Source: Spirochaetia bacterium (GTDB lineage Bacteria > Spirochaetota > Spirochaetia > WTKD01 > G963693115). Taken from it: a stretch of 64,000 bases of DNA. The position numbers and the translations under genes are program-made. A model generated the notes under the pieces. The model was not told the origin of the DNA and made no database searches. It was given only the letters and a program-made list of their open reading frames with translations. Position 1 is the first letter of the stretch. Each line of letters begins with the position of its first letter. Below, one piece after another: positions 1,263-20,498 of the stretch. Location: assembly GCA_965226065.1 (NCBI GenBank), contig OZ245332.1:98206-162205 (forward strand). The letters run 5' to 3'.

Positions 1263-3812
1263 ATGAGCCAAGACACCATACAATTTCACCTTAGAAGAGC
1301 AGGGCGTTATTACAAAGAAGGCAAATACGAAAAGGCGATAAAAACGCTTACATTGATTATCAATTCAGACGCACCAGATGACATCAAGGCAGATGTATAC
1401 AACAACAGAGGACTTGCCAAATACGACTTACAGAGGTACGAGGAAGCGATAGAGGATTATGACAAGGCGATAGAACTACAGTCCGACCATGTTGAGACAT
1501 ACAACAACTTCACCAAGCTTGATCGCAAAGATCCCGCCGAACTACAGCTCAACTATGCAAATGCATACAACAACAGAGGCGCTGCCAAAGAAAAATTACA
1601 GAGATACGAAGAGGCGATAGAAGATTACGACAAGGCGATAAAACTACAGCCCAACCATGCCGCAGCATATAACAACAGAGGCAGTGCCAAAGGAGAATTA
1701 CAGAGATACGAGGAAGCGATAGAAGATTACGACAAGGCGATAAAACGAAAGCATGACTATGCAGATGCATACTACAACAGAGGCAATGCCAAAGGAAAAT
1801 TACAGAGACACGAGGAAGCGATAGAAGATTACGACAAAGCGATAGAGCTACAGCTTGACCATGTTGAGGCATACTACAATAGAGGCAGTGCCAAAGGAAA
1901 ATTACAGAGATACGAGGAAGCGATAGAGGATTACGACAAGGCGATAAAATTACAGCCCAACCATGCCGCAGCATATAACAACAGAGGCAATGCCAAAAAC
2001 AGCTTACAGAGATACGAGGAAGCGATAGAGGATTATGACAAGGCGATAGAAAGACAGCCCAACCTTGCAGATGCATATAGCAACAGAGGCGCTACCAAAG
2101 ACAAATTACAGAGATACGAAGAAGCGATAGAGGATTACGACAAGGCGATAGAAAGACAGCCCGACTATGCCGAGGCATGGTACAACTGTATAAAAAATGC
2201 TACAAAAGAGTTAGAAGAAAGACAGCCCGACTATGCCGAGGCATGGTACAACAGAGGCAATGCCAAACGTAGCTTGGGGAGGTACGAAGAGGCGATAGCG
2301 GACTACGACAAGGCGATAGAACGAAAGCATGACTATGCAGATGCATACAACAATAGAGGCGCTACCAAAGACAAATTACAGAGATACGAGGAAGCGATAG
2401 AAGATTACGACAAGGCGATAGAACGAAAGCATGACTATGCAGATGCATACAACAACAGAGGACTTGCCAAAGCCAAATTACAGAGATACGAAGAGGTGAT
2501 AGAAGATTATGATAAGGCGATAGAACTACAGCCCGAAGATGCCAATGCATGGTTCAACAGAGGCAATGCCAAAAACAACTTACAGAGATACGAGGAAGCG
2601 ATAGCGGATTACGACAAGGCGATAGAGTTACAGCCTAAGCTTGCCGAGGCATACAACAACAGAGGCGTTGCCAAATACGACTTACAGAGGTACGAAGAAG
2701 CGATAGAAGATTACGACAAGGCGATAGAGCTACAATCCGACCATGCAGGTGCATACCGCAACAGAGGCAATGCCAAATACGACTTACAGAGATACGAAGA
2801 GGCGATAGCGGATTACGACAAGGCGATAGAGCTACAACCCGACCATGCAGGGGCATACTACAACAGAGGCGTTGCCAAAGCCAAATTACAGAGATATGAA
2901 GAGGCGATAGCGGATTACGACAAGGCGATAGAGCTACAGCCTAATCTTGCCAATGCATGGTTCAATAGAGGCAATGCCAAAGGCAGCTTACAGAGACACG
3001 AAGAGGCGATAGCGGATTTTGACACAGCGATAGAATTACAGCCCGACTATGCTAAGGTATACCACAACAGAGGCGTTGCCAAACATAGCTTGGGGAGATA
3101 CGAGGAAGCGATAAGGGATTACTACAAGGCGATAGAGCTACAGTGTGAGAACGCAAAGAAAGACTTTAAAACAATAACATGCTATAAGTTCATCCCCATT
3201 AGCAAAAACAGCATAAACATGCTGGTAAAAAACATGGTGTATTTTAGCGATGTTCCGTCCCTGAACGACCCGCTGGAATGCCCTCTTTTGTTAACAATAT
3301 TTCAGGGCGTATTTGAAGGCAAACATGAACCGCGTATTTTCTCACTCGTGGTTCCACCTCCCAATGACAAACCAGATGAGTATGGGATACATGAGGTCGT
3401 ACGCAACACACTCCTTTTCAGCCACTATGCAGATGCGCACAAGGGAATATGCATAGGGTACGAAATAGCTCCAGAGTTTCTGCAACAAGGCACGATGTTC
3501 TATACACCTGTGCAATATAGCAAGAATACAATACCAGATAGCCTGGAGAAGCTCTTTGCCATTAAGGATGAGCTATGGAAATATGAGCATGAGGGGCGTT
3601 TTGTAGCCTTTGGCACAGAGAAACACTATCAATTGCAAGGGAATTCACGCATTACAAGGCTTATCTTTGGGCTTAAAACACCTGGAAAAGACAAGACTTT
3701 GTTGTCGAAACTTCTACAAGGTAAAGGAATAGGCTTATATGATACCTACAGTGATGAATATAGTTCTTTTGATCTCAAGTTTAAGGTTCGCAAACAATCT
3801 CATATCTCATAA
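1263..3812 (+). CDS. TPR-repeat protein with C-terminal DUF2971 domain (paralog 1, roughly 18-19 TPR units)
   Basis: AGGAGG RBS 7 nt upstream of ATG 1263; the ORF-track start at 1197 is probably too early. The N-terminus MSQDTIQFHLRRAGRYYKEGKYEKAIKTL is homologous to MTQGIE..NRATRYRKEGKYEEAI of paralogs 2 and 3. Long array of 34-aa units (AYNNRGNAKxxLQRYEEAIEDYDKAIELQP). The C-terminal ~230 aa carry DUF2971 hallmarks: LVKNMVYFSDVPSLNDPLECPL, LLFSHYADAHKGICIGYEI and LWKYEHEGRFVAF. The last codons (KQSHIS) derive from a copy of the TM2 gene 5' end. Confidence 0.85.
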   Translation: MSQDTIQFHLRRAGRYYKEGKYEKAIKTLTLIINSDAPDDIKADVYNNRGLAKYDLQRYEEAIEDYDKAIELQSDHVETYNNFTKLDRKDPAELQLNYANAYNNRGAAKEKLQRYEEAIEDYDKAIKLQPNHAAAYNNRGSAKGELQRYEEAIEDYDKAIKRKHDYADAYYNRGNAKGKLQRHEEAIEDYDKAIELQLDHVEAYYNRGSAKGKLQRYEEAIEDYDKAIKLQPNHAAAYNNRGNAKNSLQRYEEAIEDYDKAIERQPNLADAYSNRGATKDKLQRYEEAIEDYDKAIERQPDYAEAWYNCIKNATKELEERQPDYAEAWYNRGNAKRSLGRYEEAIADYDKAIERKHDYADAYNNRGATKDKLQRYEEAIEDYDKAIERKHDYADAYNNRGLAKAKLQRYEEVIEDYDKAIELQPEDANAWFNRGNAKNNLQRYEEAIADYDKAIELQPKLAEAYNNRGVAKYDLQRYEEAIEDYDKAIELQSDHAGAYRNRGNAKYDLQRYEEAIADYDKAIELQPDHAGAYYNRGVAKAKLQRYEEAIADYDKAIELQPNLANAWFNRGNAKGSLQRHEEAIADFDTAIELQPDYAKVYHNRGVAKHSLGRYEEAIRDYYKAIELQCENAKKDFKTITCYKFIPISKNSINMLVKNMVYFSDVPSLNDPLECPLLLTIFQGVFEGKHEPRIFSLVVPPPNDKPDEYGIHEVVRNTLLFSHYADAHKGICIGYEIAPEFLQQGTMFYTPVQYSKNTIPDSLEKLFAIKDELWKYEHEGRFVAFGTEKHYQLQGNSRITRLIFGLKTPGKDKTLLSKLLQGKGIGLYDTYSDEYSSFDLKFKVRKQSHIS

Positions 3813-4074: not shown

Positions 4075-5004
4075 TTAAAAAAGTAATTCAGGAGCGTGAT
4101 TTATGACAAATAGCGCCAAATCTTCATGAGCTAATAAATCAATAGGCTTTCCAAACTCATCAGATTTTTCATCAATCTCTTTTTCTATCGTCTCTGTGCT
4201 TTCGGCAGTGGTAGCTATTATTCCTCCATGTGCATCGTAATGCTCTATTGCGCCTACAATCTGTTCGACTGCATGTGTATTCTCTATTCTTCCTTCATAA
4301 GATTTTACTTGCACAACGATCAAATGTGGATATTCTATATTATTCGCTATTTTGATGTTCGTCTCTATAATTAGATCTGCCCCATGATCCGTACCCCAGC
4401 CTACTTCATTAAGTGTTACATCTTTTACATCGGGAACTTTTTTAAATACCTTATATAAAAATTCCTCAAGGTTTTTACTCTTATTCATTTGTTGAATCTT
4501 TACAGCGATATTGCTTAGCATGGGGGTCAGTTCTTTTTTGAGATGATGTATTTCTCTCGTCTCTCCGCCTTCAAGTTGTATCTTATTACTTTTTAAGTTC
4601 TCTATAGATTCATGAAATGCGTCTTCCGCACGTATTCTTTGAAATCTTTGTCGAGGTTTCAGATTAACTGTGGGTAGAACATTTGCATTCTTTCTATCAA
4701 ACTCTATCACCGTACTGGTATCAACTTCAAAGTAATGCGGAAAGGCACTAGTTTTCTCTCCAAATTTATATTCTGACGTAATTCTCGCAGCGGTACAGTG
4801 TCCTTTCCGTGGTGAATTGATAAACACGATCCAATCATCTTTATGTACTTGACGAAGACGTTCAAAATATTGATATGGTTCTTTTGGGATTCCTTCCTCC
4901 CCAGCATGTATTCGTACTGTTCCTTCATGCATCCAATCTTTGATTTGTTCTCTAATTTCGTCCTTGCATCCTTTCCATGATGCCCCAACTGACCATACTG
5001 CCAT
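4075..5004 (-). CDS. Restriction endonuclease-like protein with C-terminal Mrr-cat (PD-(D/E)xK) domain and an N-terminal domain of unknown type
   Basis: The C-terminal GWGTDHGADLIIETN....HLIVVQVKSYEG fits the Mrr catalytic-core pattern (DGGIDG...D..I...IQAK). The ~130-aa N-terminal region was not recognised. Confidence 0.5.
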   Translation of the reverse strand: MAVWSVGASWKGCKDEIREQIKDWMHEGTVRIHAGEEGIPKEPYQYFERLRQVHKDDWIVFINSPRKGHCTAARITSEYKFGEKTSAFPHYFEVDTSTVIEFDRKNANVLPTVNLKPRQRFQRIRAEDAFHESIENLKSNKIQLEGGETREIHHLKKELTPMLSNIAVKIQQMNKSKNLEEFLYKVFKKVPDVKDVTLNEVGWGTDHGADLIIETNIKIANNIEYPHLIVVQVKSYEGRIENTHAVEQIVGAIEHYDAHGGIIATTAESTETIEKEIDEKSDEFGKPIDLLAHEDLALFVINHAPELLF

Positions 5005-5253
5005 AATTCTTACCTCCTACATATAACATATATAAATTATTTGGAAATCAATTTTCAACAAAGGGTTAAATCTAAAATCCATACCATGCACTATAGCAAA
5101 ACCTAGCGTCTTATGCAAGTACACAAGGTCTAATATCCCTTTACTTAATACATAATGTCATAGATACATTGTGTCGACACTTGAGATACGCTCACAAGTT
5201 TTCTCGGGACATGTAGCGTCCTACAACAGAGACATGTATATGATCACGCAAGA

Positions 5254-6501
5254 TTACATTGTATCTCGCGTGGCTCCGAAACTCAGCAAGTACTCACGAT
5301 AGTACTCGTACTGTGCTCTGCGTGCCTTAAGTTCTGCAGGCAAGCCGATGCTTATGTCGTTCACTAAGGCGTCAAACTTGTCTAAAAGAGACACAATGCG
5401 TTCTTGCACAGGTAGGGGAGGTATGGGGATGGTGAGTTTAGCAACATCTTTTGAATAAACATGAGGAACTCCGCTTCCGCTTTTAAGATTGTGTAATACA
5501 TTTTGACAGTTTTTTAAAAAATGAAAAGCATATTTTGTAAGCAATAAACATTTATTTGTTTTTATTGAAAAGGCATCTGATACAAAAATTTCGGTCGTCC
5601 AATAACTAACAAAACCCGCATACGCACCGCTTCCCGCAATTACAATTGTTTCGCCATCTCTATTTCCTTTGTTATGATAATAGGCCGCTTTTCTGCCACC
5701 TGCAATAACAGGGATGTCACCACTTGAAATATTTTTTTTAGTTATGGATGTTCCTCGCTTAAGTTCCGCAACTTCTCCCAACGCCCTCCACTCCACGTCA
5801 TCGCCAAAGGTGAGAAGCTTCTCACGGTAGTGCTTATACTGCGCTACGCGCGCCTCAAGCTCCGCCTCAAGCTCCGCCTCAAGCTCCGCCTCAAGCTCCG
5901 CCTCAAGCTCCGCCTCAAGCTCCGCCTCAAGCTCCGTGAATGTGTCTAGCACGCCTACAATGTACTCTTGCACAGGTAGGGGTGGTATGGGGATTAGATA
6001 TTTTTTTATATCGTTAAAATTAACTGATGAAAATGTTGCACCAGAAGCTTTACTGGCAAGTACTTGTCCATGTATTTGCATAATATGAAAAAGATATTTG
6101 CTTATAACTTTTTTAGTAGCTTGTATTCCACATAAACCTCTGCCTATACAAATTTTTCTATCAGTATAATTTATTGCCCCTACAGGTGCTCGAACACTCA
6201 TTATTACGTTATGAGCTTCTATAATTTTTGTTATTTTAGAAGTATGCTTTTGAGAGTTAGCAACAACATAGTTAGTAAAATGGGATTTTCCTTGATGAAA
6301 TTCTAAATCATTTTTGTTTGATGAAACAAACTTACCTTCTGGAGATTGTCCCATTATAAGATTAAAGTAATTTATATCCCCCAGCGCTCTATACTCCACC
6401 CCGTGCGGGCAGTGCTCGGCCATCAGCCGTTCCAGCGTATTCATAGTGCACTCATGATGGTTCGCCAATAATCCCGCATAGTCCCATGATATCATGCACA
6501 T
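5254..6501 (-). CDS. hsdS: Type I restriction-modification specificity subunit HsdS (copy 1; TRD-A + TRD-B), with 7 tandem ELEA repeats in the central spacer
   Basis: Two-TRD architecture. Conserved central and C-terminal segments: IPIPPLPVQE...LD.FTELEA...RVAQYKHYREKLLTF and IPIPPLPVQERIVSLLDKFDALVNDISIGLPAELKARRAQYEYYREYLLSF. Seven 12-bp units (cctcaagctccg) at 5853..5936 encode (ELEA)7. No hsdM or hsdR in the window. The start may really be at the MNTL... methionine rather than MCMIS.... Confidence 0.85.
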   Translation of the reverse strand: MCMISWDYAGLLANHHECTMNTLERLMAEHCPHGVEYRALGDINYFNLIMGQSPEGKFVSSNKNDLEFHQGKSHFTNYVVANSQKHTSKITKIIEAHNVIMSVRAPVGAINYTDRKICIGRGLCGIQATKKVISKYLFHIMQIHGQVLASKASGATFSSVNFNDIKKYLIPIPPLPVQEYIVGVLDTFTELEAELEAELEAELEAELEAELEAELEARVAQYKHYREKLLTFGDDVEWRALGEVAELKRGTSITKKNISSGDIPVIAGGRKAAYYHNKGNRDGETIVIAGSGAYAGFVSYWTTEIFVSDAFSIKTNKCLLLTKYAFHFLKNCQNVLHNLKSGSGVPHVYSKDVAKLTIPIPPLPVQERIVSLLDKFDALVNDISIGLPAELKARRAQYEYYREYLLSFGATRDTM

Positions 6502-6708
6502 GTGTTGGAAGAGACATAGACATGTGTTGAATTGTACACTATTTATATATAACTCCCTTAATGTATCACAATGGTCTTAAATGAATTCCTGCATATTTAA
6601 TAATTTGAGGTTTACAAATGGATTTACATGTATCACGGCAACCTGTCTTTGACCTTTTAAAGTACATTCATCGGTCTATGGGCTATACTCAAACGTAAGG
6701 AGCATCGC
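6502..6708. promoter_or_regulatory. Conserved divergent intergenic leader between hsdS and the TPR-DUF2971 gene (copy 1 of a ~185-bp near-identical element; copy 2 at 13408..13592; partial third copy 15870..15911)
   Basis: 6540..6708 is near-identical to 13420..13592. It ends in ...ggctatactcaaac(g/a)taaggagcatcgcATG, a TATACT -10-like hexamer followed by an AAGGAG RBS. It presumably holds divergent promoters for both genes. Confidence 0.45.
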
Positions 6709-8661
6709 ATGACTCAAGGCATAGAATTGAACTTCAATAGAGCGACACGATATCGCAAAGAAGGCAAATATGAAGAGGCGATAGAAACGCTTACATTGAT
6801 TATCAAATCAGACGCACCAGATGACATCAAGGCAGGTGCATACTACAATAGAGGCGTTGCCAAACACGACTTAGAGAGATACGAGGAAGCGATAAGGGAT
6901 TACGACAAGGCGATAGAGCTACAGCCTAAGCTTGCCGAGGCATACAACAACAGAGGACTTGCCAAACACGACTTAGAGAGATACGAGGAAGCGATAGCGG
7001 ATTACGACAAGGCGATAGAACTACAGCCTAAGTTTACCGAGGCATGGTACAACAGAGGACTTGCCAAATACGCCTTACAGAGGTACGAGGAAGCGATAGC
7101 GGATTACGACAAGGCGATAGAACTACAGCCTAAGCTTGCCGGGGCATACAACAACAGAGGACTTGCCAAACACGACTTAGAGAGATACGAGGAAGCGATA
7201 GCGGATTACGACAAGGCGATAGAGCTACAGCCTAAGCTTGCCGAGGCATACAACAACAGAGGCAATGCCAAACGTAGCTTGGGGAGATACGAGGAAGCGA
7301 TAAGGGATTTCGACAAGGCGATAGAGCTACAGCCCGACTATGCTAAGGCATACAACAACAGAGGACTTGCCAAACACGACTTAGAGAGATACGAGGAAGC
7401 GATAGCGGATTACGACAAGGCGATAGAACTACAGCCTAAGCTTACCGAGGCATGGTACAACAGAGGACTTGCCAAATACGCCTTACAGAGGTACGAGGAA
7501 GCGATAGCGGATTACGACAAGGCGATAGAACTACAGCCTAAGCTTGCCGGGGCATACAACAACAGAGGACTTGCCAAACACGACTTAGAGAGATACGAGG
7601 AAGCGATAGCGGATTACGACAAGGCGATAGAGCTACAGCCTAAGCTTGCCGAGGCATACAACAACAGAGGCAATGCCAAACGTAGCTTGGGGAGATACGA
7701 GGAAGCGATAAGGGATTTCGACAAGGCGATAGAGCTACAGCCCGACTATGCTAAGGCATACAACAACAGAGGACTTGCCAAACACGACTTAGAGAGATAC
7801 GAGGAAGCGATAGCGGATTACGACAAGGCGATAGAGCTACAGCCTAAGCTTGCCGAGGCATACTACAATAGAGGCAATGCCAAATACAAATTAAAAAGAT
7901 ATGAAGAGGCGAAAGACGACCATCATCAGGCAATTAAGCTGCAATGTGAGAATGCACAAGAAAAATATAAGCCCATAACAAGCTATAAGTTCAGACCCAT
8001 CAATAAAAACACCATAAGCCTTTTGGTACAAGGTGAATTATATTTTAGCGATATTCCATCCCTGAACGACCCGCTGGAATGCCCCCTGATGCACTTCATG
8101 TATAAAGATATATTCAAAGATGCCAATAAGCCGCACATTTTGTCACTGGTTGTCCCCTCTCATCAACATACAAAAAACAAAGACGGAATATATACGGATC
8201 TGGTAAACAACACCTTGCTCTTCAGCCATTATGCTGATTCACACAAGGGCATATGCATAGAATACGAAATACAAGAAACACTATTAAAACAAGAACAAGC
8301 ACGCATATTCTACACCTCTGTACAATACAGCACAAACACAGAAGCACAAAATATTGAAAAACTCTTTGCCATTAAGGATGAAAAATGGAAATACGAGAAC
8401 GAAGCGCGCTTTATAGCCTTTGATGAGCAACAAGAGCCAACACGCCCGGGCAACATATATAAAGGTGGTGTGCACATTAAGAAAATAATATTCGGACTTG
8501 AAACGCCTAAGGAAGACAAAAAGCTATTGTACACCCTCTTGCACAAAGAAAACAAAGAACATTTACAAGGCATAAAGTTTTTTAACACAGAAAGCAAACC
8601 CAAAAGCTTTTTCACCCTGAAGTTTACGCCGTATACACCGCCAGACCAGGTTGGTTCATAA
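6709..8661 (+). CDS. TPR-repeat protein with C-terminal DUF2971 domain (paralog 2, roughly 11-12 TPR units; contains a perfect ~408-bp 4-TPR tandem duplication)
   Basis: Same unit structure as paralog 1. The C-terminal domain reads LLVQGELYFSDIPSLNDPLECPL, LLFSHYADSHKGICIEYEI and KWKYENEARFIAF. The 6937..7344 segment is repeated at 7345..7752 almost base for base. Confidence 0.85.
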   Translation: MTQGIELNFNRATRYRKEGKYEEAIETLTLIIKSDAPDDIKAGAYYNRGVAKHDLERYEEAIRDYDKAIELQPKLAEAYNNRGLAKHDLERYEEAIADYDKAIELQPKFTEAWYNRGLAKYALQRYEEAIADYDKAIELQPKLAGAYNNRGLAKHDLERYEEAIADYDKAIELQPKLAEAYNNRGNAKRSLGRYEEAIRDFDKAIELQPDYAKAYNNRGLAKHDLERYEEAIADYDKAIELQPKLTEAWYNRGLAKYALQRYEEAIADYDKAIELQPKLAGAYNNRGLAKHDLERYEEAIADYDKAIELQPKLAEAYNNRGNAKRSLGRYEEAIRDFDKAIELQPDYAKAYNNRGLAKHDLERYEEAIADYDKAIELQPKLAEAYYNRGNAKYKLKRYEEAKDDHHQAIKLQCENAQEKYKPITSYKFRPINKNTISLLVQGELYFSDIPSLNDPLECPLMHFMYKDIFKDANKPHILSLVVPSHQHTKNKDGIYTDLVNNTLLFSHYADSHKGICIEYEIQETLLKQEQARIFYTSVQYSTNTEAQNIEKLFAIKDEKWKYENEARFIAFDEQQEPTRPGNIYKGGVHIKKIIFGLETPKEDKKLLYTLLHKENKEHLQGIKFFNTESKPKSFFTLKFTPYTPPDQVGS

Positions 8662-8860
8662 ACTCTACATGTGTTAAAAGAGACACGGAGCGATGCCAAC
8701 AGAGAGACGGAAACGCCCCCCACCCGACATGTCCATGTCTTTGGTATCTCTGGTAGCCATCAAAACCTGACTTTACACAAAAAAACCCCTGATGACTTGA
8801 TTATGTAAAAGGCCGTGTTATGATAACATTCAGTAACATTTAATCAACAAGGAGTAAACC

Positions 8861-9776
8861 ATGATGATATATAAGAAAGCAATAGCCCTTCTGTCCCTTC
8901 TTTTGACCTTAATTATCGCAGCATGCGAAAACCCCCAACCAACATAGAGAAAAACGGTAAAGCCGACACGGATACAGACTCCGAAGGAGAATCTGCAGGC
9001 GAAACAGGCAACGAATCCGAAGACGATGGCGAAGACGCAGCCCCCGCCGCATATAGTTTTGCATTTGACACGGCAGCCACAAGGTTGCATTCACCTCAGG
9101 TGGCACATACACCCGTGCCGTCGTCGAGACAAACAAGCCCGCAGGCGACGCACGGGCTACTACATATACCTCAAGCGAGGGCAAGATAGCCACGGTCAAC
9201 GAAGCAGGTGTCGTAACCTTTGTGACCCAGGGCACGGTGACCATCACGGCCACCAAGACAGCGGAACCTGGCCATGAAAAAGCTACTGCCAGCTATGAAC
9301 TTACCATTACCAAAATGAAGCCCGCAAATAAACAGGCACTTGCCAATGAAATAACCCGAGCGATGGATGCACACGGCAACAAAGTCAACCTCAACTACAT
9401 AGACGTCTCTGATATCACCGACATGAGCTATCTTTTTAGTAGCCATGCATTCGGTTATGGGCGTCAGGCATTCAATGGCGACATATCAGAGTGGAAGGTG
9501 GCAAAGGTGACCAATATGTTCGCTACGTTTGAAGGTGCTACTGCGTTCGATCAGAATATCTCAAAGTGGGATGTGTCAGGGGTTGAAGATATGGTTTTTA
9601 TGTTTAAGGATGCAACCTCGTTCAAGCAGAACCTCAATGCATGGGGGAACAGAATAAACAACGCTTTAAAAGCTGATAAATGGAGAAATACAAAAATTAT
9701 GTTTACAGGCAGCGGTCTTGCGGACAATCTCCCTTCATGGTGTGCAAGTGTGCAAGCGTGTAGAAATGGACAATAA
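8861..9776 (+). pseudogene. BspA-like (DUF285) surface lipoprotein gene disrupted by two frameshifts
   Basis: AAGGAG RBS then MMIYKKAIALLSLLLTLIIAACENPQPT-stop. The frame continues in +1 after a C5 tract (8932..8936) as ...AAYSFAFDTAATR. A second shift occurs near 9075..9085 into the 9222..9776 frame (VAFTSGGTYTRAVVETNKPAGD...TYTSSEGKIATVNEAGVVTFV...). That frame aligns with the 18585..19640 protein and carries DUF285 units (NLNYIDVSDITDMSYLF..., ISKWDVSGVEDMVFMF). Confidence 0.6.
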
Positions 9777-9787
9777 AGGAGGAACAC

Positions 9788-9915
9788 ATGGCTATAGAAT
9801 ATAAAGTCATTCCACGCAAGATATTGGCGGGAGAAGACAAAGGCAAAGTAAAATACTACGCCACAACAAGCAACACCGGACGAACAGACCTTGATGACTT
9901 TATAAATATTATTCA
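9788..9915 (+). pseudogene. Possible truncated HU-like (Bacteroidetes-type histone-like) DNA-binding protein N-terminus
   Basis: AAGGAGG RBS, then MAIEYKVIPRKILAGEDKGKVKYYATTSNTGRTDLDDFINI resembles the N-terminus of Bacteroides-type HU-family proteins. The rest of the ORF overlaps the opposite-strand ImmA gene and looks non-coding. Confidence 0.25.
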
Positions 9916-10398
9916 GATTCCAAGTCGTATAGACATTGCTCCAAATGAAACATCGAATTCATTTGCTAAAATATGGGCAAGTTCTGCATGGAATCCCAGG
10001 TCAAAACATTCTATATAATGGTTGGCTCTCTCTTTAACCTTGTGAAGGGGCATTATTATATCAGCTGCCAGCTTATTAGCTTGAATTTCCTGATTGTTGC
10101 TTAGCAAGCTTCTGTATAATGGATCGTCAAATATCCCATCTCCTATGCTTTCCTTATGCAAGAAAAAATGGGCAAGCTCATGGGCTAGTGTAAATCTCCT
10201 CCGTTGAGGGGAATGCTTTAAATTTATAGTAATTCGGTAATTGTCGTTTACCTTCACTATCTTGCCAGACATCTCTCCCATATATTCATTTTCAACATCA
10301 ATATTATTATCCTTTGCAATACTTTCAAGATTAACAGGGTAGGAGTCAAGATATTTTTCTTTCAAACTTTTTGCGATATCCAGTCTATTGCTGTCCAT
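9913..10398 (-). CDS. ImmA/IrrE-family (DUF955) zinc metallopeptidase
   Basis: HExxH in LAHELAHFFLH, plus the downstream LAAD.IMP context typical of ImmA/IrrE anti-repressor proteases. Confidence 0.7.
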   Translation of the reverse strand: MDSNRLDIAKSLKEKYLDSYPVNLESIAKDNNIDVENEYMGEMSGKIVKVNDNYRITINLKHSPQRRRFTLAHELAHFFLHKESIGDGIFDDPLYRSLLSNNQEIQANKLAADIIMPLHKVKERANHYIECFDLGFHAELAHILANEFDVSFGAMSIRLGI

Positions 10399-10401
10399 TT
10401 G

Positions 10402-10845
10402 TCACTCCTTATTCACTTTTTTAGCATCATCAACATCAGAAGTACTTAATGCGTAAATATCGCCCGCCTTCATTCTTTCGTTTGTCTTTTTCATTACTTC
10501 CTCTACTATGGAATCTGTTTTATTTTTAATAAAGTCATCAGCTTTCCTATTTATGATTTCAGTTACTTTTGAATTTATTTCTTGCCAACCGATGATAGCC
10601 AGGATTCCGCCACCCATTGTTATGGTCGCTATAATTATTCCCAGTAAAGATATTTGAAAACTTAAAGCGTCAACATTACTGAGGTTTTCTGAATTCGCAA
10701 ACTTGAAAAACCCAAATACAATAAGTAGCAAGAAAAAAGCTCCAATCACAACAAGAAAAAATGTTAAAATGAGTATTAAAACTCCAGATTTTGGTTTACC
10801 TTCAGCTTTTTTGACTTTTTCTTTATTCCCCGGAGAACCAACCAC
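10402..10845 (-). CDS. Small membrane protein (2 predicted TM helices), co-directional and 3 nt upstream of the ImmA-like gene
   Basis: Two long hydrophobic stretches (VLILILTFFLVVIGAFFLLLIVFGFF and LLGIIIATITMGGGILAIIGW). No HTH motif recognised. Confidence 0.45.
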   Translation of the reverse strand: MVGSPGNKEKVKKAEGKPKSGVLILILTFFLVVIGAFFLLLIVFGFFKFANSENLSNVDALSFQISLLGIIIATITMGGGILAIIGWQEINSKVTEIINRKADDFIKNKTDSIVEEVMKKTNERMKAGDIYALSTSDVDDAKKVNKE

Positions 10846-10904
10846 TTATCTATTATGACACAGGTATCTAAATATAACAACAATATGCTGTATAAAATCT
10901 TTTT

Positions 10905-11394
10905 CCTCCATGAACCGCGTATTTTCTCACTCGTGGTTCCACCTCCCAATGACAAACCAGATGAGCATGGGATACATGAGGTCGTACGCAACACACTTCT
11001 TTTCAGCCACTATGCAGATGCGCACAAGGGAATATGCATAGGGTACGAAATAGCTCCAGAGTTTCTGCAACAAGGCACGATGTTCTATACACCTGTGCAA
11101 TATAGCAAGAATACAAGACCAGATAGCCTGGAGAAGCTCTTTGCCATTAAGGATGAGCTATGGAAATATGAGCATGAGGGGCGTTTTGTAGCCTTTGGCA
11201 CAGAGAAACACTATCAATTGCAAGGGAATTCACGCATTACAAGGCTTATCTTTGGGCTTAAAACACCTGAGGAAGACAAGACTTTGTTGTCGAAACTTCT
11301 ACAAGGCAAAGGAATAGACTTATATGATACCTACAGTGATGAATATAGTTCTTTTGATCTCAAGTTTAGGGAACACGGGGCAACATCTTTTTGA
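10905..11394 (+). pseudogene. Truncated copy of the DUF2971 C-terminal domain (about 97% identical to residues of paralog 1; no TPR region and no N-terminal NDPxE segment)
   Basis: 10911..11375 encodes EPRIFSLVVPPPNDKPDEHGIHEVVRNTLLFSHYADAHKGICIGYEI...LWKYEHEGRFVAF.... This is near-identical to 3334..3790, but with a different 3' end and unrelated upstream codons. Confidence 0.7.
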
Positions 11395-11502
11395 CAAAGG
11401 CTTTGCAGGCAATTGGTTTGAGCCCCACCAATGGGCCTATGGTAGACGATGAACATTTATTCTATGCAGCTTGGACTCTTAGTATCTTGATCACGCCCTA
11501 GC

Positions 11503-11847
11503 TTAGTCTTTCCAACTGTACAGCGTCCCATCATCGCGTATCGCCACTGTGTGATCCCCACATGTCGCAACAGCATTCCATTTTTCGATCCCTACTTTGA
11601 CGGGACTAGTCTGATGCTTCATATGCCATAGTGTCCCATCATCGCGTATCGCCACTGTGTGATCCCCACCTGCCGCAACAGCCTTCCATCTTCCGATCCC
11701 TACCATGTTGGGACTAGTCTGATAATTACGCCCTTTCCAAATACACAGCGTCCCATCATCGCGTATTGCCACTGTGTGATCCCTACCTATCGCAACAGCC
11801 TTCCATCTTCCGATCCCTACCTTGTCGGGACTAGTCTGATAATTCAT
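11503..11847 (-). pseudogene. RCC1-repeat (beta-propeller blade) protein fragment
   Basis: Three near-identical blades: GIGRWKAVA.G.DHTVAIRDDGTL..WK (RCC1-like GxxHTVAL..DGxLxxWG). Only 114 aa with no upstream continuation, so likely a remnant. Confidence 0.45.
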
Positions 11848-12180
11848 ATGCCATCTCCTTTATAAAATAAAATTTGTGAAAGCTGCTTAATATACAAGCA
11901 ACATTTTCAATTATATAAAGTATAGAAAACAAAACACAATAATACAATAGGTAAAATTAAAATGTGATGCAAGCTTGTCCAAGAACCCCATTCCTAAGCT
12001 TCTGCCTACCATACGGAGATGCCCTTATCAGCATACCGTTCTAAGCAATACGCAATATGCCTTTGAACTTTAGGGCACAAGTCCAAGAAGTTTACTAAAT
12101 AAATTTTTAGAGACACCTAGTGATAGCCAACAGCGACACATAGCGTCCTACAACAGAGACATGTATATGATCACGCAAGA

Positions 12181-13407
12181 TTACATTGTATTTCGCGTGG
12201 CTTCGAAACTAAGCAAGTACTCACGATAGTACTCGTACTGTGCTCTGCGTGCCTTAAGTTCTGCAGGCAAGCCGATGCTTATGTCGTTCACTAAGGCGTC
12301 AAACTTGTCTAAAAGAGACACAATGCGTTCTTGCTCTGCAAGGGGCGGTATGGGGATAGAAAACTTATTTATTATTGAAGAATTTATATTATTGATAGTA
12401 GTGCTACAGATACTTTTTTTAAGATATTGCAAGAAATTACCGCTACCTAACAAATAAAAAATAAATTGAGAATTAATACTTTTATTACATCTTATAACTG
12501 CCATAAAGCCACCAAAGTAGTAATCTATATTGTTATTAATATATGCAACTTTTCCTACATGGGCTTTACTTCCACTTGCTACGCTCATAAGAATATCACC
12601 TTTTTTTAACTTTTGCGTATCTTTAATTTTGGTATCTTTAGACACAACTTTAACATCTTCAAAGTTTAATCTATTATTTAATATGTCAATATTATTCGCT
12701 CTTAATATTTTGAAACCACTGTTTAAAGTTGTTTCCTGCGATTTATTGTAAGTAACCCCTCGCACATATTTAGCAATTTCTCCTAATTCTCTATATTCCA
12801 CGTCATGGCCAAAGGTGAGCAGCTTCTCACGGTAGTACTTATACTGCGCTACGCGCGCCTCAAGCTCCGCCTCAAGCTCCGTAAAGCTGTCGAGTATCTT
12901 TACGATTGCTTCTTGCACAGGTAGGGGTGGTATGGGTATGGGCAGTTTGGCAACATCTTTTGAATAAACATGAGGAACTCCGCTTCCGCTTTTAAGATTG
13001 TGTAATACATTTTGACAGTTTTTTAAAAAATGAAAAGCATATTTTGTAAGCAATAAATATTTATTTGTTTTTATTGAAAAGGCATCTGATACAAAAATTT
13101 CGGTCGTCCAATAACTAACAAAACCCGCATACGCACCGCTTCCCGCAATTACAATTGTTTCGCCATCTCTATTTCCTTTGTTATGATAATAGGCCGCTTT
13201 TCTGCCACCTGCAATAACAGGGATGTCACCACTTGAAATATTTTTTTTAGTTATGGATGTTCCCCGCTTAAGTTCCGCAACTTCTCCCAATTCTCTATAC
13301 TCCACCCCGTGCGGGCAGTGCTCGGACATCAGCCGTTTCAGCGTATTCATAGTGCACTCATGATGGTTCGCCAATAATCCCGCATAGTCCCATGATATCA
13401 TGCACAT
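12181..13407 (-). CDS. hsdS: Type I R-M specificity subunit HsdS (copy 2; TRD-B + TRD-C), 2 ELEA repeats in the central spacer
   Basis: Identical N- and C-terminal conserved regions to copy 1. Its first TRD (GEVAELKRGTSITKKNISSGDIPVIAGG...AKLPIPIPPLPVQE) is the same sequence that forms the second TRD of copy 1; its second TRD is unique. Only two cctcaagctccg units are present. Confidence 0.85.
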   Translation of the reverse strand: MCMISWDYAGLLANHHECTMNTLKRLMSEHCPHGVEYRELGEVAELKRGTSITKKNISSGDIPVIAGGRKAAYYHNKGNRDGETIVIAGSGAYAGFVSYWTTEIFVSDAFSIKTNKYLLLTKYAFHFLKNCQNVLHNLKSGSGVPHVYSKDVAKLPIPIPPLPVQEAIVKILDSFTELEAELEARVAQYKYYREKLLTFGHDVEYRELGEIAKYVRGVTYNKSQETTLNSGFKILRANNIDILNNRLNFEDVKVVSKDTKIKDTQKLKKGDILMSVASGSKAHVGKVAYINNNIDYYFGGFMAVIRCNKSINSQFIFYLLGSGNFLQYLKKSICSTTINNINSSIINKFSIPIPPLAEQERIVSLLDKFDALVNDISIGLPAELKARRAQYEYYREYLLSFEATRNTM

Positions 13408-13592
13408 GTGTTGAATTGTACACTATTTATATATGATTCCCTTAATGTATCACAATGGTCTTAAATGAATTCCTGCATATTTAATAATTTGAGGTTTACA
13501 AATGGATTTACATGTATCACGGCAACCTGTCTTTGACCTTTTAAAGTACATTCATCGGTCTATGGGCTATACTCAAACATAAGGAGCATCGC
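13408..13592. promoter_or_regulatory. Second copy of the conserved hsdS/TPR divergent leader
   Basis: Near-identical to 6540..6708. Confidence 0.45.
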
Positions 13593-15512
13593 ATGACTCA
13601 AGGCATAGAATCGTACTTCAATAGAGCGACACGATATTACAAAGAAGGCAAGTATGAAGAGGCGATAAAAACGCTTACATTGATTATCAAATCAGACGCA
13701 CCAGATGACATCAAGGTAGGTGCGTACAACAACAGAGGACTTACCAAAGACAGCTTGGGGAGCTACGAGGAAGCGATAAGGGATTACGACAAGGCGATAG
13801 AGCTACAGCCCGACTATGCCGCAGCATACCACAACAGAGGACTTGCCAAAAACAGCTTACAGAGATACGAAGAAGCGATAAAAGATTACGACAAGGCGAT
13901 AGAGCTACAGCCCGACTATGCCAATGCATGGTTCAACAGAGGCGTTACTAAATACAACTTAAGAAGATACGAGGAAGTGATAGAGGATTACGACAAGGGG
14001 ATAGAACTACAGCCCGACGATGCTAAGGCATACCACAACAGAGGTGTTGCTAAATACAACTTAAAAAGATACGAGGAAGCGATAGAGGATTACGACAAGG
14101 CGATAGAGCTACAGCCTAAGCTTGCCGAGACATACAACAACAGAGGCACTGCCAAATACAACTTACAGAGATACGAGGAAGCGATAGAAGATTACGACAA
14201 GGCGATAGAGCTACAGCCTAAGCTTGCCAAGGCATACTACAACAGAGGTAATGCGTACCATGAGCAAGCACAATACAACAAAGCAATAGTAGACTACACG
14301 CAGGTCATTAAACTGCCCACAGATGATAACACCAAAGCAGGAGCGTATGCTGGCAGAGGTACTGCATACGCCAAGCAAAAAGAATACAACGAAGCAATAA
14401 ATGATTTCAATGCTGCCCTACAGTACGGCATATCCGATGAAGTTATAAAAACATATCGCAAGCAAGAAGAAAAGGGCATTGCTAAAAACATATTAGAAGT
14501 ATTTGAAAGCACGGCGCAGATATTAAACCAACTAAAAGTACCTAAAGATTCTAAAGACACAGAATATCTTTCGCATACTACTAGATTGCCCGTGTTTATT
14601 CAACTCCTTGTTCCTGCACATAAGAACGAAAAACAACCACTAGGGATCTTTCGTATGTACCACATTGCCTACACCAACGACCCAACTGAAGGCAGGGTCT
14701 TGTTCAATAATATGAATATACCCCTTGATGAAGCAACACAGGGTAGGGACATACCTTATGTGATGGTAACAAGCTTTTGTGGAGGTAAAAACCCACAAGC
14801 ATTAGACACCTTGCCCATATGGAAGATGTACGGCGATGATGCACAAGGCATAGGCCTGTTATTTAAGAAAAGCGACATAGCCTACGATAAAAAAGGACAT
14901 GCCATGCCACATTATTTTGAATCTACTATGCTTAGCGACACTGGAAATACCAATAAGAAAGTCACACATGCGACATCACAACCCTTGCCAAATGAAGCAG
15001 ATGAAAAGAATGTTACACCCCCACAGATACTCTACAAGGTCTACTATGTGAAGAGTGATGAAACAGATGAAACAAAGAGTGATGAAATATATGGAAAGTT
15101 AAAAGACATAAAAACAAATCTTGAGACGATACAGAAACAACAAGATATACACAACAAAACCCTAGAGTTGCTAAACGGTATACGGTATCTCATAAAAGAC
15201 ATAAAATATGCCTACGAAGAAGAATACCGCCTCTTGTGCTTTGCAAATAAGGAACAAGTCCCAAAGATACTACAAAGCCAAGACATCACAGAACAAACTG
15301 AAAGCACCAAAGACACGAATACGGGTAGTCTACCACGTATACGTATCTACATAGAGACAGAAATATTAAAAAAACTCTGCAAGGTAATAACCGCCCCTAA
15401 AGTAAATAAGGAACAAGCCTTAAACATACAGTATCTTTTGCATTTCTATAAGGAAGAATTGCCAAAGCTGGAAGAAGAACCCCTATATACCAGCAATATA
15501 CCCTACCGCTAA
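13593..15512 (+). CDS. TPR-repeat protein (roughly 7 units) with a divergent, insertion-containing DUF2971-like C-terminal domain (paralog 3)
   Basis: N-terminus MTQGIESYFNRATRYYKEGKYEEAI plus TPR units as in paralogs 1 and 2. The C-terminal domain has GIFRMYHIAYTNDPTEGRVLF (NDPxE motif) and KYAYEEEYRLLCF (W/YxYExE-R motif) with extra inserted sequence. Confidence 0.8.
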   Translation: MTQGIESYFNRATRYYKEGKYEEAIKTLTLIIKSDAPDDIKVGAYNNRGLTKDSLGSYEEAIRDYDKAIELQPDYAAAYHNRGLAKNSLQRYEEAIKDYDKAIELQPDYANAWFNRGVTKYNLRRYEEVIEDYDKGIELQPDDAKAYHNRGVAKYNLKRYEEAIEDYDKAIELQPKLAETYNNRGTAKYNLQRYEEAIEDYDKAIELQPKLAKAYYNRGNAYHEQAQYNKAIVDYTQVIKLPTDDNTKAGAYAGRGTAYAKQKEYNEAINDFNAALQYGISDEVIKTYRKQEEKGIAKNILEVFESTAQILNQLKVPKDSKDTEYLSHTTRLPVFIQLLVPAHKNEKQPLGIFRMYHIAYTNDPTEGRVLFNNMNIPLDEATQGRDIPYVMVTSFCGGKNPQALDTLPIWKMYGDDAQGIGLLFKKSDIAYDKKGHAMPHYFESTMLSDTGNTNKKVTHATSQPLPNEADEKNVTPPQILYKVYYVKSDETDETKSDEIYGKLKDIKTNLETIQKQQDIHNKTLELLNGIRYLIKDIKYAYEEEYRLLCFANKEQVPKILQSQDITEQTESTKDTNTGSLPRIRIYIETEILKKLCKVITAPKVNKEQALNIQYLLHFYKEELPKLEEEPLYTSNIPYR

Positions 15513-16816: not shown

Positions 16817-16839
16817 AATGAGAAGAAAGACATCACAGA

Positions 16840-20467: not shown

Positions 20468-20498
20468 AATAATTTCTCCTTATTTTGTTTTTTATGTA

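What the first reader, a model, noticed from the sequence alone, without database searches (positions are those of the whole stretch)
5254..13592. Conserved divergent cassette hsdS <- ~185-bp leader -> TPR-DUF2971, present twice, with no hsdM or hsdR nearby
hsdS copy 1 (5254..6501, minus) and copy 2 (12181..13407, minus) are each followed by the same leader, almost base for base (6540..6708 matches 13420..13592). The leader ends in a TATACT hexamer, an AAGGAG RBS and the ATG of a TPR-DUF2971 gene on the plus strand. About 55 bp downstream of each hsdS stop (5200..5254 and 12125..12181) is also conserved. This marks a repeated module boundary. Neither a methyltransferase (hsdM) nor an endonuclease (hsdR) subunit is in the window. 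The repeated pairing suggests that hsdS and the TPR-DUF2971 gene are co-regulated from divergent promoters, or move and recombine as one unit. The TPR-DUF2971 protein may be a functional partner of a type I specificity subunit. Alternatively these are silent or alternative S cassettes for an hsdMR locus elsewhere.
Basis: seen in the sequence. Interest (0 to 1): 0.75.

Follow-up and report, generated by a model that had tools for sequence, protein, structure and literature searches.

The report
Satellite type I specificity genes, duplicated
Two spare DNA-recognition genes (hsdS) of a type I restriction system sit far from the enzyme genes they serve, which I found elsewhere in the same genome; each sits next to an unrelated candidate anti-phage toxin gene, and the repeat is best explained by recombination inside a defence island rather than by a new partnership.

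Summary
Two intact hsdS genes (5254..6501 and 12181..13407, minus strand) are each followed by a ~240-bp intergenic region that is ~99% identical. That region leads into a plus-strand TPR-DUF2971 gene. No hsdM or hsdR lies in the window.

The same 1.85-Mb contig does encode an intact HsdM (519 aa) and HsdR (1012 aa) of the EcoR124 (type IC) family. In a sister genome these genes sit in a locus with three further hsdS genes. One of those carries the same hsdS<-leader->TPR-DUF2971 junction.

All hsdS copies share near-identical conserved regions, and their target-recognition domains (TRDs) are mosaic:
- TRD-B fills slot 2 of hsdS1 and slot 1 of hsdS2.
- The sister strain's copy at this island combines TRD-A with a main-locus TRD, and it is a pseudogene.
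- That strain has one cassette here, where the window has two.

Best reading: these are satellite hsdS genes and TRD donors for a type IC enzyme encoded elsewhere, multiplied and reshuffled by homologous recombination. TPR-DUF2971 is a DarT-like ADP-ribosyltransferase of the Aristaios/PDC-S31 kind and is probably independent: only 1 of 28 long metagenome DUF2971 loci had type I genes nearby. These are known phenomena in a new lineage.

The parts
5254..6444 (-). hsdS1, a satellite type IC specificity gene. Layout: TRD-A / central conserved region with (ELEA)x7 / TRD-B / C-terminal conserved region. The mechanical ORF extends to 6501; the likely start is MNTLERL at 6444.
5851..5936 (-). Perfect 12-bp tandem repeat CGCCTCAAGCTC x7.2. 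It encodes (ELEA)n in the central coiled-coil region of hsdS1. hsdS2 has x2.2 at 12856-12881.
5397..5781 (-). TRD-B in the second (C-terminal) slot of hsdS1.
   Evidence: about 97-98% identical to 12907-13290
5208..5253 (-). Conserved 46 bp just downstream of the hsdS1 stop. It is also found after hsdS2 and, in part, after hsdS-b in L009.
   Evidence: no terminator-like fold
6445..6708 (.). Leader copy 1, the divergent intergenic region. It contains a 22-bp insertion at about 6498-6519. Candidate hsdS-ward promoter: TTGTGA-N18-TATAAA at 6571->6542. Candidate TPR-ward promoter: AGTACA-N17-TATACT at 6661-6689. AAGGAG lies at 6697-6702.
6709..8661 (+). TPR(x11)-DUF2971 gene, 650 aa. The C-terminal domain is a DarT-like ADP-ribosyltransferase fold of the PDC-S31 / Aristaios kind.
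12181..13350 (-). hsdS2, a satellite type IC specificity gene. Layout: TRD-B / (ELEA)x2 / TRD-C. The ORF extends to 13407. It is an exact match to database protein P0001 on the 1,849,772-bp contig.
12907..13290 (-). TRD-B in the first (N-terminal) slot of hsdS2.
12135..12180 (-). Conserved 46 bp downstream of the hsdS2 stop.
13351..13592 (.). Leader copy 2.
   Evidence: 99.6% identical to the sister-strain copy L011 4835-5076
13593..15512 (+). TPR(x7)-DUF2971 gene, 639 aa. It has the same leader and N-terminal TPR part, but a different, distantly related DUF2971 C-terminal domain.
15869..16163 (+). Third, partial copy: the last ~41 bp of the leader plus an 83-aa TPR N-terminal fragment.
10855..11394 (+). 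5'-truncated DUF2971 fragment. Together with the RCC1-like fragment 11503..11847 it matches the main type IC locus of the sister strain (L009 10601-11726, 91%).
1197..3812 (+). TPR(x16)-DUF2971 paralogue, 871 aa, without the leader and without an adjacent hsdS.
4075..5004 (-). Mrr_cat nuclease-like gene (PADLOC PDC-S02-like) downstream of hsdS1. It is conserved in the sister island.

Best explanation
hsdS1 and hsdS2 are satellite ('orphan') specificity genes of an EcoR124-family (type IC) restriction-modification system. Its hsdM and hsdR genes lie elsewhere on the same chromosome.

**Shown**
- The genome encodes an intact HsdM and HsdR outside the window.
- In a sister strain these genes sit in a locus with three more hsdS genes.
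- All hsdS copies share near-identical N-terminal, central and C-terminal conserved regions, and they carry different TRDs.
- TRDs are mosaic between copies, between slots, and between loci about 546 kb apart.
- The repeated hsdS 5' end / leader / TPR 5' end junction also exists inside the main locus.
- Cassette number at this island differs between strains.

**Inferred**
- The island was seeded by a copy of part of the main locus.
- It is reshaped by three processes: homologous recombination or gene conversion across the conserved hsdS segments, unequal crossing-over between the directly repeated leader and TPR arrays, and slippage of the 12-bp repeat.
- When expressed from a promoter in the leader, each S subunit assembles in trans with the shared HsdM and HsdR and adds a bipartite target. 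Otherwise it serves as a TRD donor.
- The TPR-DUF2971 genes are separate DarT-like ADP-ribosyltransferase defence effectors. They are neighbours of hsdS because both live in a recombining defence island.
For: **The genome has its own hsdM and hsdR**
- hsdS2 and the DUF2971 fragment are exact matches to proteins on one 1,849,772-bp contig.
- HsdR P0180 (1012 aa, 99% identical to the sister's) and HsdM P0187 (519 aa) are on that same contig. Neither is in the window.

**The system is type IC**
- HsdR's best solved relative is EcoR124I HsdR (E 1.6e-242).
- hsdS2's best solved relative is the EcoR124II S subunit (E 3e-33).

**Sister-strain loci**
- Main locus L009 runs hsdR, hsdS-c, leader, TPR-DUF2971..., hsdS-b..., hsdS-a..., hsdM.
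- Window 6387-7128 matches L009 9692-10420.
- The conserved regions are invariant in all five S proteins, with (ELEA)n of 2-7.

**TRDs are exchanged between copies**
- TRD-B sits in slot 2 of hsdS1 and slot 1 of hsdS2, at 97-98% nucleotide identity.
- The sister island's hsdS (L011) combines two parts. Its TRD-A half is 98.4% identical to hsdS1. Its central region, TRD2 and C-terminus are 98.5% identical to main-locus hsdS-a.

**Cassette number varies**
- L011 has one cassette, with a chimeric TPR gene, where the window has two.

**The leader is conserved in all four copies**
- The four leader copies are about 98-99.6% identical (1-5 mismatches in ~242 columns).

**Selection on TRD-B**
- dN/dS between the two TRD-B copies is about 0.2, based on only 12 differences.

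**Literature**
- TRD movement between slots and between loci is described in PMC3077401.
- Orphan hsdS genes are functional when the cognate hsdM is elsewhere (PMC6918075).
- Tetrapeptide repeat number sets the spacer length in EcoR124I/II (PMC7383803).
Against: - Expression is unproven. No consensus sigma-70 promoter or terminator was called. My lenient scan finds only 8-9 of 12 matches. No clear Shine-Dalgarno sequence precedes the MNTL start.
- The sister strain's copy carries a CGA->TGA nonsense change and a 1-nt insertion. The satellite gene is therefore dispensable there.
- Seven ELEA repeats in hsdS1 lie outside the 2-3 seen in characterised type IC enzymes and in the other copies. They may not give a working coiled coil.
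- The position and hsdS content of the main locus in the window's own genome could not be read.
- Both genomes are single metagenome assemblies, and the sister contig has about 8x coverage. Small indels could be assembly errors.
Confidence: 0.6

Rival explanations
1. Inert by-products. The two hsdS genes are unexpressed, decaying duplicates left by recombination in a hypervariable island. They have no present role beyond occasional accidental gene conversion.
For: - The sister island's hsdS is broken by a nonsense codon and a frameshift.
- The island is full of gene fragments: 10855..11394, 15912..16163, 16713..17024 and 930..1145.
- Promoter and ribosome-binding signals for hsdS are weak or absent.
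- hsdS1 has an unusual 7-unit repeat.
Against: - Both window copies are full-length, with every conserved-region residue intact.
- dN/dS between the two TRD-B copies is about 0.2.
- The intergenic region is better conserved than the flanking coding DNA: 3/242 versus 10/137 mismatches between the window copies.
Confidence: 0.25
2. Functional partnership. The TPR-DUF2971 protein works with the type I machinery. It could be a PrrC-like guard whose TPR domain binds the S subunit or the M2S complex and releases the ADP-ribosyltransferase when a phage inhibits restriction. Alternatively, it could use HsdS for DNA targeting. In this model the shared leader co-regulates the pair.
For: - In the sister strain the gene is embedded between hsdS and hsdR of the type IC locus. 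PrrC is embedded the same way in the type IC EcoprrI locus (my own knowledge).
- The junction is kept in four copies with a very well conserved intergenic region.
- The constant part is the TPR N-terminus, while the effector domain varies.
- The fold is closest to the DNA-modifying DarT enzymes.
Against: - Two of the three main-locus hsdS genes have other neighbours.
- The 871-aa paralogue at 1197..3812 has no hsdS and no leader.
- Three paralogues in a related species have no adjacent hsdS.
- Only 1 of 28 long DUF2971 metagenome loci has type I genes within 10 kb.
- DUF2971 (Aristaios) protects as a single gene (PMC11381338).
- In the sister island the hsdS is a pseudogene while the TPR gene is intact.
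Confidence: 0.1
3. Mobile cassette. hsdS, leader and TPR-DUF2971 together form a transposable or site-specifically recombining unit, such as a shufflon or an integron-like cassette.
For: - The same junction is present at two chromosomal loci about 546 kb apart in the sister genome.
- It is present twice in the window.
- A short conserved segment follows each hsdS stop.
Against: - No recombinase, integrase or transposase was found among the island ORFs I scanned.
- All hsdS copies are in direct orientation, so inversion switching is not possible.
- The copies have no common outer boundaries. Homology ends at different points, inside TRDs and inside TPR arrays.
- The leader has no match in viral contigs.
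Confidence: 0.04
4. Assembly artefact. Two strain haplotypes of one cassette were stitched in tandem by the metagenome assembler.
For: - The sister genome has a single cassette that looks like a hybrid of the two.
- These are long-read metagenome contigs, and the sister has about 8x coverage.
Against: - About 3.5 kb of unique genes separates the cassettes: PARCEL fragment, M78 peptidase, membrane protein, DUF2971 fragment and RCC1 fragment.
- The cassettes differ in TRDs and in the TPR C-terminal domain.
- Sequence downstream of hsdS2 resembles the main locus, not the flank of cassette 1.
Confidence: 0.03

Closest known systems
Type IC restriction-modification systems (EcoR124I/II, EcoDXXI, NgoAV, EcoprrI)
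   Same: - HsdR and HsdS are closest to the EcoR124 proteins among solved structures.
- The S subunit has two TRDs separated by a coiled-coil region with an in-frame tetrapeptide repeat: (ELEA)n here, TAEL in EcoR124. In EcoR124I/II the repeat number sets the spacer of the target (PMC7383803).
   Different: - These two hsdS genes are not next to hsdM or hsdR.
- The repeat number reaches 7.
- Several hsdS genes with identical conserved regions coexist in one genome.
Orphan or satellite hsdS genes acting in trans (Staphylococcus epidermidis and S. aureus Sau1; lactococcal plasmid hsdS)
   Same: A complete hsdS lies away from hsdM and hsdR, with the cognate hsdM elsewhere in the genome. Such genes can be expressed and add a specificity (PMC6918075).
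   Different: - Activity is not shown here.
- The copies sit in a chromosomal defence island, in tandem.
- Each is joined to a TPR-ADP-ribosyltransferase gene.
Domain movement (DoMo) and inter-locus TRD exchange in Helicobacter pylori hsdS (Furuta et al. 2011, PMC3077401)
   Same: - The layout is x-TRD1-y-x-TRD2-y, with repeated flanking segments.
- The same TRD is found in slot 1 of one gene and slot 2 of another.
- TRDs are exchanged between genes at different loci.
   Different: - The lineage is different.
- The exchange involves a satellite island about 546 kb from the main locus.
- It is seen together with cassette copy-number change.
Phase-variable multi-hsdS loci that switch by inversion (SpnD39III/spnIII; Atack et al. 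2020, PMC7394358)
   Same: Several hsdS genes share repeats and shuffle their TRDs.
   Different: - There are no inverted hsdS copies.
- There is no nearby recombinase.
- The copies are complete genes in direct orientation and far from hsdM, so switching by inversion cannot occur.
Aristaios / PADLOC PDC-S31 / DUF2971 (DarT-like ADP-ribosyltransferase fold)
   Same: - The C-terminal domains pass Pfam's DUF2971 threshold and match PDC-S31.
- The model's best structural matches are DarT enzymes.
- DUF2971 is an experimentally shown single-gene antiphage protein (PMC11381338) and a predicted ART (PMC12522546).
   Different: - Here the domain is fused to 7-16 tandem TPR units.
- It is present as a rapidly recombining multigene family with two divergent effector types.
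PrrC anticodon nuclease embedded in the type IC EcoprrI locus (my own knowledge)
   Same: A suicide effector gene is embedded in a type IC hsd locus, as TPR-DUF2971 is in the sister strain.
   Different: - There is no evidence of physical or regulatory coupling here.
- The effector class is different.
- The association is not recurrent outside this species.

Membership tests
Type I HsdS, type IC (EcoR124) family | Two target-recognition domains separated by central and C-terminal conserved (coiled-coil) regions | tested here: met
   Methylase_S matches in two stretches in both proteins. The alignment of five paralogues shows conserved N-terminal, central and C-terminal blocks around variable TRDs.
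Type I HsdS, type IC (EcoR124) family | Closest to type IC proteins rather than to other type I families | tested here: met
   For hsdS2 the best solved relative is the EcoR124II S subunit 7bst_A (E 3e-33), against EcoKI at 9e-23. The genome's HsdR matches EcoR124I HsdR 2w00 at E 1.6e-242. The sister HsdR carries the EcoR124_C domain.
Type I HsdS, type IC (EcoR124) family | In-frame tetrapeptide repeat in the central conserved region | tested here: met
   (ELEA)x7 in hsdS1 and x2 in hsdS2, and x2-3 in the sister copies.
Type I HsdS, type IC (EcoR124) family | Cognate hsdM and hsdR present in the same genome | tested here: met
   P0187 (HsdM, 519 aa) and P0180 (HsdR, 1012 aa) are on the same 1,849,772-bp contig.
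Type I HsdS, type IC (EcoR124) family | hsdS adjacent to hsdM (hsdMS operon) | tested here: not met
   There is no HsdM or HsdR similarity anywhere in the 64-kb window. These are orphan copies.
Type I HsdS, type IC (EcoR124) family | Directs sequence-specific methylation or restriction | not testable with these tools
   This needs a methylome or biochemistry.
Inversion-type phase-variable multi-hsdS locus | Inverted hsdS copies that share repeats | tested here: not met
   All copies are on the same strand in the window and in L009. No inverted repeats were found between them.
Inversion-type phase-variable multi-hsdS locus | Site-specific recombinase in or next to the locus | tested here: not met
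   No recombinase family appears among the island ORFs I scanned. ORFs under 100 aa were not all scanned.
DoMo / inter-gene TRD exchange | The same TRD in slot 1 of one hsdS and slot 2 of another, flanked by repeated segments | tested here: met
   win_S1 nt 649-1048 matches win_S2 nt 46-444 at 96.8%; the core is 98% identical.
DoMo / inter-gene TRD exchange | TRD shared between genes at different loci | tested here: met
   L011 hsdS nt 451-1177 matches L009 hsdS-a nt 415-1140 at 98.5%. The two loci are about 546 kb apart on one contig.
DUF2971 / Aristaios / PDC-S31 | Match to Pfam PF11185 above the gathering score | tested here: met
   Scores of 26.1, 22.2 and 24.6 bits against a cut-off of 22 for the three C-terminal domains.
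DUF2971 / Aristaios / PDC-S31 | Match to the PADLOC PDC-S31 models | tested here: met
   E 3.7e-29 for the 650-aa protein and 7.9e-26 for the 871-aa protein. The 639-aa protein matches only weakly, at 3.7e-4.
DUF2971 / Aristaios / PDC-S31 | ADP-ribosyltransferase fold with a conserved Tyr and ExE motif | tested here: met
DUF2971 / Aristaios / PDC-S31 | Confers phage resistance as a single gene | not testable with these tools
   This is shown only for the lactococcal Aristaios protein (PMC11381338).
PrrC-like guard of a type IC enzyme | Effector gene embedded within the hsd locus | tested here: inconclusive
   Met in the sister strain's main locus. Not met in the window, where there is no hsdM or hsdR.
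PrrC-like guard of a type IC enzyme | Recurrent association of the effector family with type I genes | tested here: not met
   Only 1 of 28 metagenome DUF2971 loci of at least 8 kb has type I genes. Three related-species loci have none adjacent.
PrrC-like guard of a type IC enzyme | Physical interaction with, and masking by, the restriction complex | not testable with these tools
   This needs biochemistry.

The most novel reading that the evidence does not exclude
The TPR-DUF2971 proteins may be guards of the type IC restriction complex, analogous to PrrC with EcoprrI. In this reading the constant N-terminal TPR array binds HsdS or the M2S complex. Interchangeable DarT-like ADP-ribosyltransferase domains are then released when a phage anti-restriction protein attacks the enzyme. 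The very well conserved divergent leader would couple expression of the S subunit and its guard. The evidence does not exclude this. It would explain why the junction is retained in four copies, and why the TPR end stays constant while the effector end varies.
Probability: 0.08. Interest if true: 0.75.

Novelty: new member of a known kind. Interest (0 to 1): 0.3.

Why it matters
This case shows how one type I enzyme can be given several specificities. Spare hsdS genes are kept far from hsdM and hsdR and trade recognition domains with the main locus.

The sequence makes concrete methylome predictions:
- There should be two extra bipartite motifs that share one half-site in swapped positions.
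- Their spacers should differ by about five base pairs, if the EcoR124 rule of one repeat per base pair holds.

It also adds a TPR-fused, multi-copy form of the DUF2971/DarT-like antiphage family.

None of this overturns current understanding. The apparent lack of hsdM and hsdR comes from looking at a 64-kb window rather than at the whole genome.

Tried and rejected
- **Exact-protein look-ups.** Look-ups of window proteins in the contig index failed. The window's own contig could therefore not be read outside the window.
- **Genome scan with hsdS2.** The source species is not among the representatives, and its taxonomy stays unresolved.
- **Taxonomy.** The only hints are a TP_0983-family gene and an rpoN-hprK-ptsH cluster in relatives, which point to a spirochaete. 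A trigger-factor search gave no named relatives. My Pfam copy did not reproduce the TP_0983 hit.
- **Leader as structured RNA.** Rejected: there is no Rfam match in 1-24000 at E <= 1. The leader also folds worse than shuffled sequence, z = +2.2.
- **Terminator after hsdS.** None was found, and the folds there are not better than shuffles.
- **Consensus promoters in the leader.** None was called by the tool.
- **Leader in viral contigs.** No match.
- **Island inserted into one split EcoRI-like methylase gene.** Rejected: both sister fragments contain the N-terminal part of the profile, so they are two copies and not two halves of one gene.

Full report
**1.

- ORFs lie exactly at 5254..6501(-) and 12181..13407(-). 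Both are type I specificity subunits: Pfam Methylase_S at E 7e-45 and 1e-52, plus many PADLOC Specificity_I models.
- Each is followed on the plus strand by a TPR gene, at 6709..8661 and 13593..15512. The C-terminal domain of each passes Pfam's DUF2971 threshold.
- The intergenic DNA is almost identical. From the likely hsdS start (MNTL..., 6444 and 13350) to the TPR ATG there are 3 mismatches in 242 aligned columns, plus a 22-bp insertion in copy 1.
- 46 bp after each hsdS stop are 95.7% identical.
- Neither hsdM nor hsdR is in the window. The large ORFs are carB, clpB, ftsK, tig, clpX, pgk and similar genes. tblastn with this genome's own HsdM and HsdR finds nothing below E = 0.1.

**2.

- The two hsdS genes are mosaics. 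hsdS1 is TRD-A / (ELEA)x7 / TRD-B, and hsdS2 is TRD-B / (ELEA)x2 / TRD-C.
- The same recognition domain sits in the second slot of one gene and the first slot of the other, at about 97-98% nucleotide identity.
- The ELEA tract is a perfect 12-bp tandem repeat, x7.2 versus x2.2.
- The two TPR proteins share only the leader and the N-terminal TPR units. Their DUF2971 domains are barely similar to each other, whereas the 650-aa and 871-aa proteins are 51% identical in that domain.
- The first 20 kb of the window is a defence island with many fragments:
  - a third TPR-DUF2971 gene (1197..3812) with neither leader nor hsdS;
  - an Mrr_cat gene (4075..5004);
  - a DUF262-HNH nuclease (17495..18580);
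  - an M78 peptidase (9913..10398);
  - TPR-DUF2971 fragments at 10855..11394, 15912..16163 and 16713..17024;
  - an EcoRI-like methylase remnant (930..1145).

**3. The missing hsdM and hsdR exist in the same genome**

- hsdS2 and the DUF2971 fragment are exact matches to database proteins P0001 and P0129. Both are recorded on one contig of 1,849,772 bp.
- The nearest TPR-DUF2971 relative (P0122) led to locus L009 on a 1,800,608-bp contig of a sister genome.
- There the gene lies inside a complete type I locus, all hsd genes on one strand, in this order: hsdR (with an EcoR124_C domain), hsdS-c, the same leader, TPR-DUF2971, a 113-aa gene, DUF4917, hsdS-b, DUF1828/1829, DUF6978, hsdS-a, pentapeptide, DUF4411, M78, hsdM.
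- Cluster look-ups show that the window's contig carries HsdR P0180 and HsdM P0187:
  - P0180 is 1012 aa, with 1002 of 1012 residues identical to the sister's HsdR.
  - P0187 is 519 aa. It matches the sister's C-terminal 288 residues at 100% identity.
- The window's contig also carries the ortholog of the M78 gene that abuts hsdM in the sister locus.
- The system is type IC. HsdR matches EcoR124I HsdR at E 1.6e-242, and hsdS2 is closest to the EcoR124II S subunit.

**4. The hsdS copies belong to one interchangeable set**

- I aligned the two window proteins with the three from L009. The N-terminal, central and C-terminal conserved regions are essentially invariant, while the TRDs are all different. 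(ELEA)n ranges from 2 to 7.
- These conserved regions form the coiled-coil scaffold that contacts HsdM in type I enzymes (established knowledge). All five proteins should therefore fit the same HsdM and HsdR.

**5. Strain comparison shows the dynamics**

- The DUF262-HNH ortholog led to L011, the orthologous island in the sister genome. It lies about 546 kb from that genome's main locus. Flanks are 97-99% identical to the window.
- L011 has one cassette where the window has two.
- Its hsdS has an N-terminal half (TRD-A) that is 98.4% identical to hsdS1. The central region, second TRD and C-terminus are 98.5% identical to main-locus hsdS-a.
- That hsdS is broken by a CGA->TGA change and a 1-nt insertion.
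- Its TPR gene (776 aa) is a chimera. The 5' part resembles the window's first cassette, and the C-terminal domain is that of the second.
- This is the product expected from unequal crossing-over between two directly repeated cassettes, or its reverse.
- It also shows TRD transfer between the main locus and the satellite island. This was probably non-reciprocal, because the copies are in direct orientation and a reciprocal exchange would delete about 546 kb.
- Window 10909-12031 (DUF2971 3' part plus an RCC1-like gene) is 91% identical to L009 10601-11726. Part of the island therefore looks copied from the main locus.

**6. The leader**

- Four copies (two in the window, one in L011, one in L009) differ by 1-5 substitutions in about 242 columns, plus two small insertions. 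The adjoining coding DNA differs more, by 5-9 per 65-72 nt.
- The cause is either recent gene conversion or selective constraint; I cannot tell which.
- It is not a known RNA and has no stable fold.
- The scan tool calls no consensus promoter.
- A lenient scan gives TTGTGA-N18-TATAAA towards hsdS and AGTACA-N17-TATACT towards the TPR gene, both only 8-9 of 12 matches.
- The leader occurs only at hsdS/TPR junctions. It is absent from the other TPR-DUF2971 gene, from hsdS-a and hsdS-b, from related-species loci and from viral contigs.

**7. TPR-DUF2971 is probably an independent defence gene**

- The C-terminal domain matches the PADLOC candidate PDC-S31 at E 3.7e-29.
- The HYA...W.YE.E.R residues are invariant in the alignment.
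- Published work predicts DUF2971 to be a DarT-like ART (PMC12522546). It also shows that a DUF2971 protein, Aristaios, protects lactococci from phage as a single gene (PMC11381338).
- Among 80 metagenome loci that encode relatives, 28 were at least 8 kb long, and only one of those had hsdM, hsdS and hsdR nearby.
- Three paralogues in a related species have no adjacent hsdS.
- The pairing is therefore specific to this species. It is best explained by both genes living in a recombining defence island.

**8. Mechanism, with its status**

*Shown:*
- the type IC family assignment;
- an intact hsdM and hsdR elsewhere in the genome;
- shared conserved regions across all hsdS copies;
- TRD mosaicism between slots, genes and loci;
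- variation in repeat number;
- variation in cassette number between strains.

*Inferred:*
- The satellite S subunits, if transcribed from the leader, assemble in trans with HsdM and HsdR and add specificities. This has been shown for orphan hsdS genes in staphylococci (PMC6918075).
- In any case they serve as TRD donors, as in H. pylori domain movement (PMC3077401).
- The 12-bp repeat would set the spacer length, as TAEL repeats do in EcoR124I/II (PMC7383803).

*Against activity:*
- ribosome-binding and promoter signals for hsdS are weak or absent;
- hsdS1 has an unusual seven repeats;
- the sister's copy is a pseudogene.

*For activity:*
- both ORFs are intact;
- dN/dS between the two TRD-B copies is about 0.2, on 12 differences only.

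**9. Verdict**

The finding is real and careful. Its puzzle, hsdS genes without hsdM or hsdR, dissolves once the rest of the genome is consulted. What remains is a clean example of known things in an unnamed lineage: orphan type IC hsdS genes, TRD movement, tetrapeptide-repeat variation, and defence-island recombination. It comes with a TPR-fused DarT-like gene family alongside. A PrrC-like guard relationship between the TPR protein and the type IC enzyme is not excluded, but it has little support.

Noticed in passing
window 5851-5936 and 12856-12881: A perfect 12-bp tandem repeat (CGCCTCAAGCTC) occurs x7.2 in hsdS1 and x2.2 in hsdS2. It encodes (ELEA)n in the coiled-coil spacer. Seven units is well beyond the 2-3 seen in the sister-strain copies.
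   Followed up: partly
window 6838-7887: The TPR array of the 650-aa gene has a higher-order repeat of 408 bp (four TPR units) x2.6 at 95% identity, which indicates very recent internal duplication. TPR unit number varies widely between paralogues and strains: 16, 11 and 7 here, with shorter versions in the sister.
   Followed up: partly
window 6618-6698 (and 13502-13582): A 26-codon upstream ORF (MDLHVSRQPVFDLLKYIHRSMGYTQT) has GAGG 8 nt before its ATG. It ends on the TPR gene's ribosome-binding site. The 9-mer ATGTATCAC also occurs twice in the leader. Neither was tested for significance.
   Followed up: no
window 930-1145; L011 59-406 and 7773-8639: Remnants of an EcoRI-family adenine methyltransferase flank the island. 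The sister strain has one truncated copy and one nearly complete copy. No cognate endonuclease was seen.
   Followed up: partly
window 17495-18580: An intact DUF262(GmrSD_N)-HNH nuclease gives a full-length match to a PADLOC 'type II REase' model (E 2.4e-143). It is conserved in the sister strain.
   Followed up: partly
window 18585-22739, with fragments at 8830-9776: A cluster of PARCEL/DUF285 repeat surface-lipoprotein genes with 75-nt tandem repeats. Paralogous copies at about 75% identity flank hsdR in the sister strain's main locus.
   Followed up: partly
window 9913-10845: A small M78 (ImmA/IrrE, CapP-like) peptidase gene and an adjacent 147-aa membrane-protein gene lie between the two cassettes. 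Both are absent from the sister island.
   Followed up: no
window 11503-11847: An RCC1-repeat fragment with 117-nt tandem repeats (x3). It is homologous to a 113-aa gene next to TPR-DUF2971 in the sister's main type IC locus.
   Followed up: partly
L011 3628-4891: The sister strain's satellite hsdS is split into three ORFs by a CGA->TGA nonsense change and a 1-nt insertion. At about 8x long-read coverage the indel could be an assembly error.
   Followed up: yes
L009 4533-21086: The sister strain's type IC locus is interrupted by at least eight unrelated genes between hsdM and hsdR: M78, DUF4411, pentapeptide, DUF6978, DUF1828/1829, DUF4917, the 113-aa gene and TPR-DUF2971. This amounts to a defence island nested inside an hsd operon.
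   Followed up: partly
L092 19365-20537; L093 14869-16474: In a related species, an unrelated orphan hsdS sits between an ABC-transporter operon and a penicillin-binding-protein gene. A DarT-Macro (DarTG) pair lies about 4 kb from a DUF2971 paralogue.
   Followed up: no
L009 17537-17600 versus window 6460-6485: About 20 nt upstream of hsdS-a (ATGCGAGATTATTGGC) resembles the hsdS-proximal part of the leader (ATGCGGGATTATTGGC). This may be a shared 5'-UTR element of these hsdS genes.
   Followed up: no
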